3,576 bases of DNA, taken from sequence record LC710217.1. The stretch is one strand, 5' to 3'. Below are positions 1 through 3,576 of this stretch, one piece after another. This DNA comes from Escherichia phage MS2. Every line of letters starts with the position of its first letter. Positions within the stretch are counted from its first letter, which is position 1. A model generated the notes under the pieces. The model did no database searches. It was not told where the DNA came from and was given only the letters and a program-made list of their open reading frames with translations. The translations under genes were made by a program, and so were the position numbers.

Positions 1-48
1 GGCCGATTCTATTTTTCGCCGTTTACCTGCTTATCTTTTTCCTGCTCA

Positions 49-55
49 ACTTCCT
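49..55 (+). promoter_or_regulatory. Candidate upstream complementary sequence (UCS) that can pair with the maturation-gene Shine-Dalgarno
   Basis: acttcct (49..55) can pair with aggaggt (135..141) as 6 Watson-Crick pairs plus one G-U wobble. Levivirus maturation-gene translation is known to be controlled by SD sequestration in a long-range 5' UTR helix. The exact partner is assigned by inspection only. Confidence 0.4.
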
Positions 56-134
56 GTCGAGCTAATGCCATTTTTAATGTCTTTAGCGAGACGCTACCAT
101 GGCTATCGCTGTAGGTAGCCGGAATTCCATTCCT

Positions 135-141
135 AGGAGGT
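135..141 (+). promoter_or_regulatory. Shine-Dalgarno sequence of the maturation (A) protein gene
   Basis: aggaggt lies 7-8 nt upstream of the GTG at 149..151. This is a strong, near-consensus SD. Confidence 0.85.
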
Positions 142-148
142 TTGACCT

Positions 149-1330
149 GTGCGAGCTTTTAGTACCCTTGATAGGGAGAACGAGACCTTCGTCCCCTCCG
201 TTCGCGTTTACGCGGACGGTGAGACTGAAGATAACTCATTCTCTTTAAAATATCGTTCGAACTGGACTCCCCGTCGTTTTAACTCGACTGGGGCCAAAAC
301 GAAACAGTGGCACTACCCCTCTCCGTATTCACGGGGGGCGTTAAGTGTCACATCGATAGATCAAGGTGCCTACAAGCGAAGTGGGTCATCGTGGGGTCGC
401 CCGTACGAGGAGAAAGCCGGTTTCGGCTTCTCCCTCGACGCACGCTCCTGCTACAGCCTCTTCCCTGTAAGCCAAAACTTGACTTACATCGAAGTGCCGC
501 AGAACGTTGCGAACCGGGCGTCGACCGAAGTCCTGCAAAAGGTCACCCAGGGTAATTTTAACCTTGGTGTTGCTTTAGCAGAGGCTAGGTCGACAGCCTC
601 ACAACTCGCGACGCAAACCATTGCGCTCGTGAAGGCGTACACTGCCGCTCGTCGCGGTAATTGGCGCCAGGCGCTCCGCTACCTTGCCCTAAACGAAGAT
701 CGAAAGTTTCGATCAAAACACGTGGCCGGCAGGTGGTTGGAGTTGCAGTTCGGTTGGTTACCACTAATGAGTGATATCCAGGGTGCATATGAGATGCTTA
801 CGAAGGTTCACCTTCAAGAGTTTCTTCCTATGAGAGCCGTACGTCAGGTCGGTACTAACATCAAGTTAGATGGCCGTCTGGTGTATCCAGCTGCAAACTT
901 CCAGACAACGTGCAACATATCGCGACGTATCGTGATATGGTTTTACATAAACGATGCACGTTTGGCATGGTTGTCGTCTCTAGGTATCTTGAACCCACTA
1001 GGTATAGTGTGGGAAAAGGTGCCTTTCTCATTCGTTGTCGACTGGCTCCTACCTGTAGGTAACATGCTCGAGGGCCTTACGGCCCCCGTGGGATGCTCCT
1101 ACATGTCAGGAACAGTTACTGACGTAATAACGGGTGAGTCCATCATAAGCGTTGACGCTCCCTACGGGTGGACTGTGGAGAGACAGGGCACTGCTAAGGC
1201 CCAAATCTCAGCCATGCATCGAGGGGTACAATCCGTATGGCCAACAACTGGCGCGTACGTAAAGTCTCCTTTCTCGATGGTCCATACCTTAGATGCGTTA
1301 GCATTAATCAGGCAACGGCTCTCTAGATAG
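149..1330 (+). CDS. mat: Maturation protein (A protein / assembly protein), GUG-initiated, 393 aa
   Basis: ORF of 393 codons starting GTG at 149 and ending TAG at 1328..1330. The translation (MRAFSTLDRENETFVPSVRVYADGETEDNSF...LDALALIRQRLSR) matches my recollection of the MS2 A protein. A GUG start with a strong upstream SD is the known arrangement. First gene in canonical levivirus order. Confidence 0.96.
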   Translation: MRAFSTLDRENETFVPSVRVYADGETEDNSFSLKYRSNWTPRRFNSTGAKTKQWHYPSPYSRGALSVTSIDQGAYKRSGSSWGRPYEEKAGFGFSLDARSCYSLFPVSQNLTYIEVPQNVANRASTEVLQKVTQGNFNLGVALAEARSTASQLATQTIALVKAYTAARRGNWRQALRYLALNEDRKFRSKHVAGRWLELQFGWLPLMSDIQGAYEMLTKVHLQEFLPMRAVRQVGTNIKLDGRLVYPAANFQTTCNISRRIVIWFYINDARLAWLSSLGILNPLGIVWEKVPFSFVVDWLLPVGNMLEGLTAPVGCSYMSGTVTDVITGESIISVDAPYGWTVERQGTAKAQISAMHRGVQSVWPTTGAYVKSPFSMVHTLDALALIRQRLSR

Positions 1331-1343
1331 AGCCCTCAACCGG

Positions 1344-1366
1344 AGTTTGAAGCATGGCTTCTAACT
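1344..1366 (+). promoter_or_regulatory. Coat-gene initiator hairpin with the AUG in the loop, preceded by SD ggag (1342..1345)
   Basis: agtt (1344..1347) pairs with aact (1363..1366) and gaagc (1349..1353) pairs with gcttc (1357..1361), leaving atg 1354..1356 as the loop. GGAG sits about 8 nt upstream of the ATG. This matches the well-studied MS2 coat initiator hairpin whose stability tunes coat translation. Confidence 0.7.
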
Positions 1367-1746
1367 TTACTCAGTTCGTTCTCGTCGACAATGGCGGAAC
1401 TGGCGACGTGACTGTCGCCCCAAGCAACTTCGCTAACGGGGTCGCTGAATGGATCAGCTCTAACTCGCGTTCACAGGCTTACAAAGTAACCTGTAGCGTT
1501 CGTCAGAGCTCTGCGCAGAATCGCAAATACACCATCAAAGTCGAGGTGCCTAAAGTGGCAACCCAGACTGTTGGTGGTGTAGAGCTTCCTGTAGCCGCAT
1601 GGCGTTCGTACTTAAATATGGAACTAACCATTCCAATTTTCGCTACGAATTCCGACTGCGAGCTTATTGTTAAGGCAATGCAAGGTCTCCTAAAAGATGG
1701 AAACCCGATTCCCTCAGCAATCGCAGCAAACTCCGGCATCTACTAA
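1354..1746 (+). CDS. cp: Major coat (capsid) protein, 130 aa including the initiator Met
   Basis: ORF from ATG 1354 to TAA 1744..1746, immediately followed by an in-frame TAG 1747..1749 (tandem stops). The translation MASNFTQFVLVDNGGTGDVTVAPSNFANGVAEWISSNSRSQAYKVTCSVRQSSAQNRKYTIKVEVPKVATQTVGGVELPVAAWRSYLNMELTIPIFATNSDCELIVKAMQGLLKDGNPIPSAIAANSGIY matches the MS2 coat protein as I recall it. Confidence 0.98.
   Translation: MASNFTQFVLVDNGGTGDVTVAPSNFANGVAEWISSNSRSQAYKVTCSVRQSSAQNRKYTIKVEVPKVATQTVGGVELPVAAWRSYLNMELTIPIFATNSDCELIVKAMQGLLKDGNPIPSAIAANSGIY
1446..1452 (+). promoter_or_regulatory. Min Jou long-distance interaction, 5' partner (inside the coat gene)
   Basis: tgaatgg at 1446..1452 is the exact reverse complement of ccattca at 1757..1763, just upstream of the replicase start. 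The 7-bp helix does not extend on either side. It corresponds to the known MS2 interaction that represses replicase initiation until ribosomes translating the coat gene open it. Confidence 0.8.
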
Positions 1747-1924
1747 TAGACGCCGGCCATTCAAACATGAGGATAACCCATGTCGAAGACAACAAAGAAG
1801 TTCAACTCTTTATGTATTGATCTTCCTCGCGATCTTTCTCTCGAAATTTACCAATCAATTGCTTCTGTCGCTACTGGAAGCGGTGATCCGCACAGTGACG
1901 ACTTTACAGCAATTGCTTACTTAA
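1697..1924 (+). CDS. lys: Lysis protein L, 75 aa, in the +1 frame overlapping the coat 3' end and replicase 5' end
   Basis: ORF from ATG 1697 to TAA 1922..1924. The translation METRFPQQSQQTPASTNRRRPFKHEDNPCRRQQRSSTLYVLIFLAIFLSKFTNQLLLSLLEAVIRTVTTLQQLLT has the hydrophobic C-terminal segment typical of MS2 L. It matches my recollection of MS2 L except N at residue 27, where I recall Y. There is no strong SD, consistent with the known coupling of L translation to coat-gene termination. Confidence 0.93.
   Translation: METRFPQQSQQTPASTNRRRPFKHEDNPCRRQQRSSTLYVLIFLAIFLSKFTNQLLLSLLEAVIRTVTTLQQLLT
1757..1763 (+). promoter_or_regulatory. Min Jou long-distance interaction, 3' partner (upstream of the replicase start)
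   Basis: ccattca is the reverse complement of 1446..1452 (tgaatgg). Confidence 0.8.
1765..1783 (+). promoter_or_regulatory. Translational operator (TR) hairpin: coat-protein binding site and packaging signal covering the replicase SD and AUG; loop variant with A at -5
   Basis: acatgaggataacccatgt. Stems acat/atgt and gg/cc, bulged A at 1770 (-10), 4-nt loop 1773..1776 (ataa), replicase ATG at 1780..1782, SD gagga at 1769..1773. The canonical MS2 operator as I recall it is ACAUGAGGAUUACCCAUGU with loop AUUA. Here position 1775 (-5) is A, not U. Confidence 0.9.
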
Positions 1925-3417
1925 GGGACGAATTGCTCACAAAGCATCCGACCTTAGGTTCTGGTAATGACGAGGCGACCCGTCGTACCTTAGCTATCGC
2001 TAAGTTACGGGAGGCGAATGATCGGTGCGGTCAGATAAATAGAGAAGGTTTCTTACATGACAAATCCTTGTCATGGGATCCGGATGTTTTACAAACCAGC
2101 ATCCGTAGCCTTATTGGCAACCTCCTCTCTGGCTACCGATCGTCGTTGTTTGGGCAATGCACGTTCTCCAACGGTGCCTCTATGGGGCACAAGTTGCAGG
2201 ATGCAGCGCCTTACAAGAAGTTCGCTGAACAAGCAACCGTTACCCCCCGCGCTCTGAGAGCGGCTCTATTGGTCCGAGACCAATGTGCGCCGTGGATCAG
2301 ACACGCGGTCCGCTATAACGAGTCATATGAATTTAGGCTCGTTGTAGGGAACGGAGTGTTTACAGTTCCGAAGAATAATAAAATAGATCGGGCTGCCTGT
2401 AAGGAGCCTGATATGAATATGTACCTCCAGAAAGGGGTCGGTGCCTTTATCAGACGCCGGCTCAAATCCGTTGGTATAGACCTGAATGATCAATCGATCA
2501 ACCAGCGTCTGGCTCAGCAGGGCAGCGTAGATGGTTCGCTTGCGACGATAGACTTATCGTCTGCATCCGATTCCATCTCCGATCGCCTGGTGTGGTGTTT
2601 TCTCCCACCTGAGCTATATTCATATCTCGATCGTATCCGCTCACACTACGGAATCGTAGATGGCGAGACGATACGATGGGAACTATTTTCCACAATGGGA
2701 AATGGGTTCACATTTGAGCTAGAGTCCATGATATTCTGGGCAATAGTCAAAGCGACCCAAATCCATTTTGGTAACGCCGGAACCATAGGCATCTACGGGG
2801 ACGATATTATATGTCCCAGTGAGATTGCACCCCGTGTGCTAGAGGCACTTGCCTACTACGGTTTTAAACCGAATCTTCGTAAAACGTTCGTGTCCGGGCT
2901 CTTTCGCGAGAGCTGCGGCGCGCACTTTTACCGTGGTGTCGATGTCAAACCGTTTTACATCAAGAAACCTGTTGACAATCTCTTCGCCCTGATGCTGATA
3001 TTAAATCGGCTACGGGGTTGGGGAGTTGTCGGAGGTATGTCAGATCCACGCCTCTACAAGGTGTGGGTACGGCTCTCCTCCCAGGTGCCTTCGATGTTCT
3101 TCGGTGGGACGGACCTCGCTGCCGACTACTACGTAGTCAGCCCGCCTACGGCAGTCTCGGTATACACCAAGACTCCGTACGGGCGGCTGCTCGCGGATAC
3201 CCGTACCTCGGGTTTCCGTCTTGCTCGTATCGCTCGAGAACGCAAGTTCTTCAGCGAAAAGCACGACAGTGGTCGCTACATAGCGTGGTTCCATACTGGA
3301 GGTGAAATCACCGACAGTATGAAGTCCGCCGGCGTGCGCGTTATACGCACTTCGGAGTGGCTAACGCCGGTTCCCACATTCCCTCAGGAGTGTGGGCCAG
3401 CGAGCTCTCCTCGGTAG
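1780..3417 (+). CDS. rep: RNA-directed RNA polymerase (replicase beta subunit), 545 aa
   Basis: ORF from ATG 1780 to TAG 3415..3417. The translation begins MSKTTKKFNSLCIDLPRDLSLEIYQ and ends TFPQECGPASSPR, and contains the polymerase motif IGIYGDDIICPS. Last gene in canonical levivirus order, with its start embedded in the operator hairpin. Confidence 0.97.
   Translation: MSKTTKKFNSLCIDLPRDLSLEIYQSIASVATGSGDPHSDDFTAIAYLRDELLTKHPTLGSGNDEATRRTLAIAKLREANDRCGQINREGFLHDKSLSWDPDVLQTSIRSLIGNLLSGYRSSLFGQCTFSNGASMGHKLQDAAPYKKFAEQATVTPRALRAALLVRDQCAPWIRHAVRYNESYEFRLVVGNGVFTVPKNNKIDRAACKEPDMNMYLQKGVGAFIRRRLKSVGIDLNDQSINQRLAQQGSVDGSLATIDLSSASDSISDRLVWCFLPPELYSYLDRIRSHYGIVDGETIRWELFSTMGNGFTFELESMIFWAIVKATQIHFGNAGTIGIYGDDIICPSEIAPRVLEALAYYGFKPNLRKTFVSGLFRESCGAHFYRGVDVKPFYIKKPVDNLFALMLILNRLRGWGVVGGMSDPRLYKVWVRLSSQVPSMFFGGTDLAADYYVVSPPTAVSVYTKTPYGRLLADTRTSGFRLARIARERKFFSEKHDSGRYIAWFHTGGEITDSMKSAGVRVIRTSEWLTPVPTFPQECGPASSPR
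2794..2805 (+). other. Catalytic YGDD motif (RdRp motif C) within the replicase
   Basis: Codons tac ggg gac gat in the rep frame encode Y-G-D-D within IGIYGDDII. This is the conserved active-site motif of levivirus replicases. Confidence 0.9.
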
Positions 3418-3576
3418 CTGACCGAGGGACCCCCGTAAACGGGGTGGGTGTGCTCGAAAGAGCACGGGTCCGCGAAAGCGGTGGCTCCACCGAAAGGTGG
3501 GCGGGCTTCGGCCCAGGGACCTCCCCCTAAAGAGAGGACCCGGGATTCTCCCGATTTGGTAACTAGCTGCTTGGCG
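3418..3576 (+). other. 3' untranslated region with a series of stable stem-loops; the terminal hairpin is truncated
   Basis: GC-rich noncoding tail after the rep stop. Hairpins read by eye: 3431..3444 (ccccg-UAAA-cgggg), 3450..3465 (gtgctc-GAAA-gagcac), 3470..3481 (ccgc-GAAA-gcgg), 3487..3500 (ccacc-GAAA-ggtgg), 3503..3514 (gggc-UUCG-gccc) and 3541..3553 (cggga...tcccg). The 5' arm of the terminal hairpin (ggtaactagc, 3558..3567) and its loop (tgcttg, 3568..3573) are present, but the 3' arm and terminal CCCA are missing. Confidence 0.8.

What the first reader, a model, noticed from the sequence alone, without database searches (positions are those of the whole stretch)
3558..3576. 3' terminus truncated inside the terminal hairpin; CCCA-3' end absent
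The 5' arm (ggtaactagc) and loop (tgcttg) of the 3'-terminal hairpin are present, but the window ends ...gcttggcg. The complementary arm and the terminal ...ACCACCCA that I recall from MS2 are missing, and the last base g does not fit the expected arm sequence (gctagttacc). The 3' CCCA is where minus-strand synthesis starts, and the 3' terminal structure is also contacted by the maturation protein in virions. The molecule as written is therefore incomplete at the 3' end, most likely through loss during cDNA synthesis or assembly rather than biology.
Basis: partly seen in the sequence, partly recalled or inferred. Interest (0 to 1): 0.45.

Follow-up and report, generated by a model that had tools for sequence, protein, structure and literature searches.

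The report
Truncated, chimeric ends of MS2 assembly
The window is an ordinary phage MS2 genome whose last 13 bases (half of the terminal hairpin plus the CCCA replication start) are missing, and whose first 20 bases are replaced by a piece of an E. coli gene; both are sequencing or assembly artefacts, not biology.

Summary
Window 40..3575 is MS2 nt 21..3556 at 99.4-99.6% identity. The window stops three bases into the 3' arm of the 3'-terminal hairpin. It adds one G where every full-length relative has U3557, and it lacks the final 13 nt, TAGTTACCACCCA.

- MS2, R17, ST4, fr, GA and Qbeta all keep a stable, covarying terminal hairpin followed by CCCA-3'. No database record ends at 3556/3557.
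- The sister record LC710218.1 is 100% identical over 3511 nt. It ends elsewhere (about ref 27 and 3536) and runs straight into Illumina adapters.
- The window's own 5' end is also artefactual. Bases 1..45 are 100% E. coli agaD, joined to MS2 nt 21 through a 6-nt microhomology inside the 5'-terminal hairpin.
- The stray terminal G implies an rU-dC mismatch at primer position 1. That is a documented common class of random-hexamer mispriming.

Verdict: an assembly or library end artefact in an otherwise ordinary MS2 sequence. Interest is low, apart from database hygiene.

The parts
1..39 (+). Foreign 5' segment: the sense strand of E. coli agaD (PTS galactosamine transporter subunit IID). It replaces MS2 nt 1-20.
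   Evidence: Window 1..44 is 100% identical in 3870+ E. coli records, under the annotated agaD CDS. The match runs 45 nt. MS2 references do not align before window 40.
40..45 (+). Junction microhomology TCCTGC, shared by agaD and MS2 nt 21-26. It lies in the 3' arm of the MS2 5'-terminal hairpin.
   Evidence: overlap of the two matches. Chance of >=6 nt of microhomology at a random junction is about 0.0013. The reference 5' hairpin (nt 1-28) folds at -23.2 kcal/mol.
40..3575 (+). MS2 (Emesvirus zinderi) genome, nt 21-3556. Genes: mat 149-1330, cp 1354-1746, lys 1697-1924, rep 1780-3417. Operator hairpin at 1748-1783.
   Evidence: 99.4-99.6% identity to NC_001417.2/GQ153927.1. ORFs match the reference annotation shifted by +19. 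Rfam RF02359 scores 56.4 bits.
3557..3568 (+). Complete 5' arm of the 3'-terminal hairpin (ref 3538-3549).
   Evidence: Fold of the reference 3' end; alignment.
3569..3572 (+). Loop GCUU of the 3'-terminal hairpin (ref 3550-3553).
3573..3575 (+). First 3 nt (GGC) of the 3' arm. The remaining 9 nt of the arm and the CCCA-3' tail (ref 3557-3569) are absent.
3576..3576 (+). Non-templated or mismatched terminal G (ref U3557). Most likely the 5' base of a misprimed random hexamer (rU-dC).
   Evidence: Mismatch shown. All full-length relatives have T here. The mispriming class is documented in PMC3875578. The assignment to mispriming is inference.

Best explanation
The window is a de novo assembly of shotgun (random-primed) cDNA reads from an MS2 isolate grown on E. 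coli. It is not an end-to-end copy of the virion RNA.

3' end. First-strand primers must anneal on the template, so the extreme 3' nucleotides are never covered. Here that region is also locked in a 12-bp hairpin. The right-most read started with a hexamer lying on ref 3552-3557, and its 5' base mispaired (dC opposite rU3557). That leaves ...UUGGC+G as the contig end and loses TAGTTACCACCCA.

5' end. Reverse transcriptase stalled as it entered the 3' arm of the very stable 5'-terminal hairpin. It switched template to a host agaD mRNA through 6 nt of complementarity (UCCUGC). That chimeric read extended the contig by 39 nt of host sequence in place of MS2 nt 1-20.

The underlying phage must have carried normal termini. 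The hairpin plus CCCA-3' is where the replicase initiates minus-strand synthesis, and a plaque-forming isolate cannot lack it.

Shown: the truncation, the mismatch, the host identity of the 5' segment, the microhomology, conservation of the true termini, and library-specific ends in sister records. Inferred: random-hexamer mispriming and RT template switching as the exact molecular events. The confidence of 0.9 is for 'technical, non-biological ends'. The specific molecular events are each about 0.5-0.6.
For: (1) The window aligns to MS2 only over 40..3575 = ref 21..3556. The final G mismatches T3557 and 13 nt are missing.
(2) Eight full-length MS2-group records, fr and GA all continue GGC-UAG...ACC-ACCCA, except MT830620, whose last base is G. 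Qbeta has the same hairpin + CCCA design.
(3) The helix is 96% paired across MS2/R17/ST4/fr/GA, with 2 compensatory A-U to G-C pairs. Slid controls give 6-52% pairing and no compensatory pairs. The sample is small: 30/500 shuffles did as well.
(4) No record among the 90 matching the 3' UTR ends at 3556/3557. Incomplete records end at many method-dependent positions: 3552, 3551, 3546, 3534, 3528, 3526, 3498, 3481 and others.
(5) LC710218.1 (wastewater, Yamanashi; host E. coli) is 100% identical over window 45..3555. Its MS2 part ends at about ref 27 and 3536, directly abutting TruSeq adapter and index sequence. Same genome, different ends.
(6) LC710219.1 (Qbeta, same series, 'complete genome') lacks about 10 nt at the 5' end and about 25 nt at the 3' end. 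It stops in the 5' arm of its own 3' hairpin.
(7) Window 1..45 is 100% E. coli agaD sense strand. There is a 6-nt junction microhomology (P about 0.0013), and it sits in the 3' arm of the -23.2 kcal/mol 5' hairpin.
(8) rU-dC at read position 1 is among the commonest first-strand random-hexamer mispriming errors (PMC3875578).
(9) Replication initiates at the penultimate C of CCA-3', and changing or deleting the terminal A strongly reduces replication (PMC10610835).
Against: No reads, library protocol or publication for this sequence could be retrieved, so random priming and template switching are inferred, not seen. A single terminal base cannot be attributed with certainty. A 6-nt microhomology could also arise in PCR-mediated chimerism, and ligation chimeras cannot be excluded. 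The window's end coordinate (ref 3557) coincides with the 5' end of one published MS2 RT primer, so a primer-defined end is conceivable, although the base is wrong. That the window is GenBank LC710217.1 is a guess, resting only on its absence from the collection.
Confidence: 0.9

Rival explanations
1. The 3' end is primer-defined. The genome was reverse-transcribed or amplified with a gene-specific primer whose 5' end lies at ref 3557, so the sequence stops there by design.
For: A published MS2 primer AGCCAAGCAGCTAGTTACCAAATC spans ref 3557-3534 (PMC3366922). Many database MS2 records do end at primer-defined positions such as 3481/3480/3476.
Against: That primer would give T, not G, at the last base. 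No other database record ends at 3556/3557. The 5' end is a host-gene chimera, and the sister record carries Illumina adapters at non-primer positions. Both are typical of shotgun libraries rather than amplicons.
Confidence: 0.04
2. The truncation, and perhaps the agaD fusion, is biological. On this reading the sample contained 3'-nibbled or defective/recombinant MS2 RNAs, for example replicase template-switch products with host mRNA, and the assembly reports them faithfully.
For: From general knowledge, levivirus replicases can generate recombinant RNAs containing host sequence (Qbeta RQ RNAs). The agaD segment is in sense orientation, as expected for an RNA-RNA event. Neither point distinguishes in vivo from in vitro switching.
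Against: An RNA lacking the CCCA-3' tail and the 5' GGG terminus has no initiation sites for either strand (PMC10610835). It could not be the propagating genome of a plaque isolate. Both termini are strictly conserved in all relatives. An identical-sequence sister library has different ends. Both junctions sit exactly where RT priming and processivity fail.
Confidence: 0.04
3. The terminal G is a genuine U3557G polymorphism of this strain, and only the last 12 nt were lost.
For: The strain has other private substitutions relative to the references, such as window 272, 586, 881-882 and 1775.
Against: U3557 pairs with A3546 in the terminal helix, and G would create an A.G mismatch. All nine full-length Emesvirus zinderi records, and GA, have U at this position. 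A mismatch confined to the very last base of a contig is the expected signature of a primer or read-end error (PMC3875578).
Confidence: 0.03

Closest known systems
Escherichia phage MS2 (Emesvirus zinderi) genomic RNA, NC_001417.2 / GQ153927.1
   Same: 99.4-99.6% nucleotide identity over ref 21-3556. Same four genes in the same positions, and the same operator hairpin.
   Different: Lacks ref 1-20 (replaced by 39 nt of E. coli agaD) and ref 3557-3569 (replaced by one G). About 14 internal point differences from GQ153927.
Levivirus 3'-terminal hairpin + CCCA-3' (minus-strand initiation site; 3'-proximal stem-loop contacted by the maturation protein)
   Same: The 5' arm, the loop and the first 3 nt of the 3' arm are identical to MS2.
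   Different: The 3' arm and the single-stranded CCCA tail are absent, so the element as written cannot fold and could not serve as an initiation site.
LC710218.1 (MS2 GI_B) and LC710219.1 (Qbeta GIII_C), wastewater isolates from Yamanashi, deposited as 'complete genome'
   Same: LC710218.1 is 100% identical to the window over 3511 nt. Both records are terminally incomplete raw assemblies.
   Different: LC710218.1 ends at about ref 27/3536 and retains TruSeq adapters, where the window has a host chimera. It is also deposited in reverse complement. LC710219.1 is simply truncated.
Random-hexamer mispriming and RT template-switch chimeras in RNA-seq libraries (van Gurp et al. 2013, PMC3875578)
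   Same: A mismatch confined to the position corresponding to the primer's 5' base, of the rU-dC type. A chimeric junction with short microhomology at a strong secondary structure.
   Different: Here the artefacts survive only as the two ends of a consensus contig. Read-level confirmation is not available.

Membership tests
Emesvirus zinderi (MS2) genome | Near-identical nucleotide sequence and mat-cp-lys-rep gene order | tested here: met
   99.4-99.6% identity over 3536 nt. ORFs at ref + 19.
Emesvirus zinderi (MS2) genome | Coat-protein operator hairpin at the replicase start | tested here: met
   Rfam RF02359, 56.4 bits against a gathering score of 40, window 1748-1783. The loop carries U(-5)A.
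Emesvirus zinderi (MS2) genome | Authentic 5' terminus GGGUGGGACCCC... forming the 5'-terminal hairpin | tested here: not met
   Window 1-39 is E. coli agaD. MS2 begins at nt 21.
Emesvirus zinderi (MS2) genome | Authentic 3' terminus ...GCUAGUUACCACCCA-3' | tested here: not met
   The window ends ...GGC+G at ref 3556/3557, and 13 nt are missing.
Levivirus 3'-terminal hairpin + CCCA initiation element | Two complementary arms forming a stable terminal helix, conserved with covariation | tested here: not met
   In relatives the helix is 12 bp, 96% paired, with 2 compensatory pairs (small sample, 30/500 shuffles as good) and folds at -17.9 kcal/mol. In the window only the 5' arm, the loop and 3 nt of the 3' arm exist.
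Levivirus 3'-terminal hairpin + CCCA initiation element | Unpaired CCCA-3' tail | tested here: not met
   Absent from the window. Present in MS2, R17, ST4, DL1, fr, GA and Qbeta.
Shotgun-assembly end artefact (random-primed cDNA) | Contig ends fall a few to a few tens of nt short of the true termini, and differ between libraries of the same genome | tested here: met
   Window: ref 21 and 3556. LC710218.1 (100% identical): about ref 27 and 3536, with adapters. Qbeta sister record: -10 and -25 nt.
Shotgun-assembly end artefact (random-primed cDNA) | A terminal mismatch of a known mispriming type at primer position 1 | tested here: inconclusive
   G opposite U3557 implies rU-dC, a commonest class in PMC3875578. 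It is a single base and no reads are available.
Shotgun-assembly end artefact (random-primed cDNA) | Read-level evidence: coverage decay toward the ends, few reads supporting the terminal base and the chimera | not testable with these tools
RT template-switch chimera (5' end) | The foreign segment is identical to a nucleic acid present in the sample (the host) | tested here: met
   100% identity to agaD in thousands of E. coli genomes. The sister record's host is E. coli.
RT template-switch chimera (5' end) | Microhomology at the junction, next to a polymerase-stalling structure | tested here: met
   6 nt, TCCTGC, P about 0.0013 by chance. It lies inside the 3' arm of the -23.2 kcal/mol hairpin.

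The most novel reading that the evidence does not exclude
The agaD-MS2 junction and the truncated 3' end could report a real population of defective or recombinant MS2 RNAs. These would be made in infected cells by replicase template switching onto a host mRNA, abundant enough to be assembled in place of the canonical termini.
Probability: 0.03. Interest if true: 0.45.

Novelty: not a real feature. Interest (0 to 1): 0.06.

Why it matters
Biologically it does not matter. The isolate almost certainly has normal MS2 termini, and the 3' hairpin/CCCA element is textbook. The practical value is curation. A sequence of this kind (its sister records are titled 'complete genome') lacks both replication-critical termini and carries 39 nt of E. 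coli agaD at its 5' end. It should not be used to design infectious clones or terminal primers, in analyses of UTR structure or conservation, or as evidence for host-phage recombination. It also shows that the ends of levivirus contigs from shotgun data need RACE before being called complete.

Tried and rejected
- I searched for a publication or methods for the LC7102xx series, by accession and by topic. Nothing was found, so the library protocol remains unknown.
- I tried to fetch LC710216, LC710217 and LC710220. They are not in the collection. LC710217 may be the window itself, but this is unverified.
- I looked for Illumina or Nextera adapter remnants in the window. There are none beyond an 8-mer chance match, so the terminal G is not the start of a TruSeq (A...) or Nextera (C...) adapter.
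- I tested whether the 5' 40 nt could be a rearranged piece of MS2. The best local match is only 10-14 nt with mismatches, so this was rejected in favour of the exact agaD match.
- I checked whether agaD sequence upstream of the match continues the window's 3' end, which would indicate a circular or concatemer artefact. It does not.
- I searched the 5' 60 nt against phages and plasmids. Only chance hits came up, apart from E. coli chromosome-like records.
- An Rfam scan found no curated family for the 3' UTR. The only hit was the operator hairpin.
- The primer-site hypothesis: one published primer starts at ref 3557, but its base does not fit the window.

Full report
**What the window is.**
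The 3576-nt window encodes the four MS2 genes in the canonical order: mat 149-1330, cp 1354-1746, lys 1697-1924 and rep 1780-3417. It matches Escherichia phage MS2 records at 99.4-99.6% identity. Against every full-length (3569-nt) reference the match covers only window 40..3575, which is reference 21..3556. Rfam finds only the MS2 operator hairpin, RF02359, at 56.4 bits over 1748-1783.

**Checking the observation (3' end).**
- In register (window = ref + 19), the window reads ...GGTAACTAGCTGCTTGGC and then G. NC_001417.2 reads ...GGTAACTAGCTGCTTGGC-TAGTTACCACCCA.
- The last base (G3576) mismatches T3557, and 13 nt are missing.
- The reference 3' 40-mer folds into a 12-bp hairpin: ref 3538-3549 with 3554-3565, loop GCUU, then CCCA single-stranded. 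The energy is -17.9 kcal/mol, z = -5.2, and 0 of 200 shuffles fold as well.
- The window's tail cannot form this hairpin (-2.1 kcal/mol, z = +1.3).

**Do authentic genomes end here?**
No.
- In an alignment with NC_001417, GQ153927, DL1, MT830620, GQ153925, R17, ST4 and fr, every full-length record continues GGC-TAG...ACC and ends ACCCA. The one exception is MT830620, whose last deposited base is G.
- GA (Emesvirus japonicum) has the same design with changed arm sequence (GGUGACUAG/CUAGUCACC + ACCCA). Qbeta has a different hairpin followed by UCCCA.
- Across MS2, R17, ST4, fr and GA the 12 pairs are 96% paired, with two A-U to G-C compensatory changes. Partner-slid controls give 6-52% pairing and no compensatory pair. 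The sample is small: 30/500 column shuffles did as well.
- Of the 90 records matching the MS2 3' UTR, none ends at 3556/3557. Incomplete ones end at many method-dependent positions, including 3552, 3551, 3546, 3534, 3528, 3526, 3498, 3481, 3480 and 3476.

**Evidence that the ends are technical.**
1. LC710218.1 ('MS2 GI_B', wastewater, Yamanashi, host E. coli, titled complete genome) is 100.0% identical to the window over 45..3555. Its MS2 portion stops at about ref 27 and 3536. On both sides it runs directly into Illumina TruSeq adapter plus index sequence (GATCGGAAGAGCACACGTCTGAACTCCAGTCAC...). Two libraries of the same genome therefore gave different ends.
2. LC710219.1 ('Qbeta GIII_C', same series) aligns to 4217-4221-nt Qbeta records from their nt 11-12 to 4192-4196. 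It lacks about 10 nt at the 5' end and about 25 nt at the 3' end, and stops in the 5' arm of the Qbeta terminal hairpin.
3. The neighbouring accession LC710217.1 is missing from the collection. It may be the window's own record, but that is only a guess.

**The 5' end: a host chimera.**
- Window 1..44 is 100% identical to the chromosomal gene agaD (PTS galactosamine transporter subunit IID) in thousands of E. coli genomes. The match is on the coding strand and extends to window 45.
- MS2 identity begins at window 40 (ref 21). The two sources therefore overlap by 6 nt, TCCTGC.
- A random junction would show >=6 nt of microhomology with P about 0.0013, both analytically and by simulation.
- The reference 5' end folds into a 12-bp hairpin, nt 1-12 with 17-28, at -23.2 kcal/mol. 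The junction (nt 21-26) lies in the 3' arm, the first part of the stem that a reverse transcriptase moving toward the 5' end would meet.
- MS2 nt 1-20 are absent.
- Six nucleotides is far too short for a k-mer assembler to join two sequences. At least one genuinely chimeric read must therefore have existed.

I infer RT template switching from MS2 RNA to host agaD mRNA at the stall site. PCR or ligation chimerism cannot be excluded.

**The single terminal G.**
- A "+"-sense G opposite template U3557 means the first-strand cDNA began with dC opposite rU.
- On ERCC spike-ins, van Gurp et al. showed that first-strand reads have high mismatch rates in the first seven bases. [quoted passage not shown]
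- A hexamer 5'-CGCCAA-3' lying on ref 3552-3557 with a mismatched 5' base explains both the base and the coordinate.
- The G is not the first base of a TruSeq (A) or Nextera (C) adapter, and no adapter remnant is present in the window.
- As a real polymorphism it would break the A3546-U3557 pair, and it is seen in no relative.

This attribution is an inference from one base.

**The primer-site idea.**
A literature search for the reverse complement of the window's end found one paper. Its MS2 primer AGCCAAGCAGCTAGTTACCAAATC spans ref 3557-3534 (PMC3366922). The coordinate coincides, but that primer would give T rather than G. The host chimera and the adapter-bearing sister record also point to shotgun libraries, not amplicons. 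I keep this as a low-probability rival.

**Functional context.**
A recent review states that replication initiates at the 3' UTR with the CCA-3' placed in the active site. It starts at the penultimate C, and mutating or deleting the terminal A strongly reduces replication (PMC10610835). The same review says MS2 stem-loop 40, the last of the numbered stem-loops, interacts with Mat, and that the 3' end lies toward the Mat pole. That this stem-loop is the 3'-terminal hairpin itself is my recollection of Dai et al. 2017 and was not verified here. An RNA with the window's termini would lack the initiation sites for both strands, so it cannot be the replicating genome of a plaque-forming isolate.

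**Verdict.**
The feature is a library or assembly end artefact laid over a well-known RNA element. The most useful new information is that the 5' end is also artefactual, as a host agaD chimera. Novelty: not a real biological feature. Interest is low at 0.06. The only non-trivial reading left open, genuine in vivo MS2-host recombinant or defective RNAs, has about 3% probability on present evidence.

Noticed in passing
window 1-45: The first 39-45 nt are not MS2. They are 100% E. coli agaD (sense strand), fused to MS2 nt 21 via the 6-nt microhomology TCCTGC inside the 5'-terminal hairpin. MS2 nt 1-20 are missing.
   Followed up: yes
window 1775 (ref 1756), within the operator hairpin 1748-1783: The coat-protein operator loop reads AUAA instead of AUUA (U-5 to A). 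The same 61-nt stretch is found in 25 of 288 MS2 records, many from TOP10 F' experimental-evolution lines, so it is a recurrent variant. Its effect on coat-protein binding and replicase repression was not evaluated.
   Followed up: partly
L002 (LC710218.1) 1-46 and 3558-3605: The GenBank 'complete genome' of MS2 GI_B retains Illumina TruSeq adapter and index sequence at both ends and is deposited as the reverse complement of the genome. Its misc_feature coordinates are nevertheless laid out as if it were the sense strand.
   Followed up: partly
L012 (LC710219.1) 1-20 and 4170-4189: The Qbeta GIII_C record from the same series, also titled complete genome, lacks about 10 nt at the 5' end and about 25 nt at the 3' end relative to 4217-4221-nt Qbeta records. 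It stops in the 5' arm of the Qbeta 3'-terminal hairpin.
   Followed up: yes
window 2021-2026 and 3470-3482: There are clustered differences from NC_001417.2/V00642.1 at ref 2002-2007 and 3451-3463. They are absent when the window is compared with GQ153927.1. They probably reflect discrepancies in the 1970s reference sequence rather than strain variation. The window's version forms a clean CCGC-GAAA-GCGG hairpin in the 3' UTR.
   Followed up: partly
window 881-882 and 272: Maturation-protein substitutions relative to the references. The codon at 880-882 is GTG (Val), against TCG (Ser) in NC_001417 and CCG (Pro) in GQ153927. Position 272 is C against G (Gly to Arg). Both are shared with LC710218.1.
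   Followed up: no
window 3576 (ref 3557): A published MS2 RT primer (PMC3366922) has its 5' end at exactly ref 3557, the coordinate of the window's last base. Its first base (A, giving + sense T) does not match the window's G, so this is probably a coincidence.
   Followed up: yes
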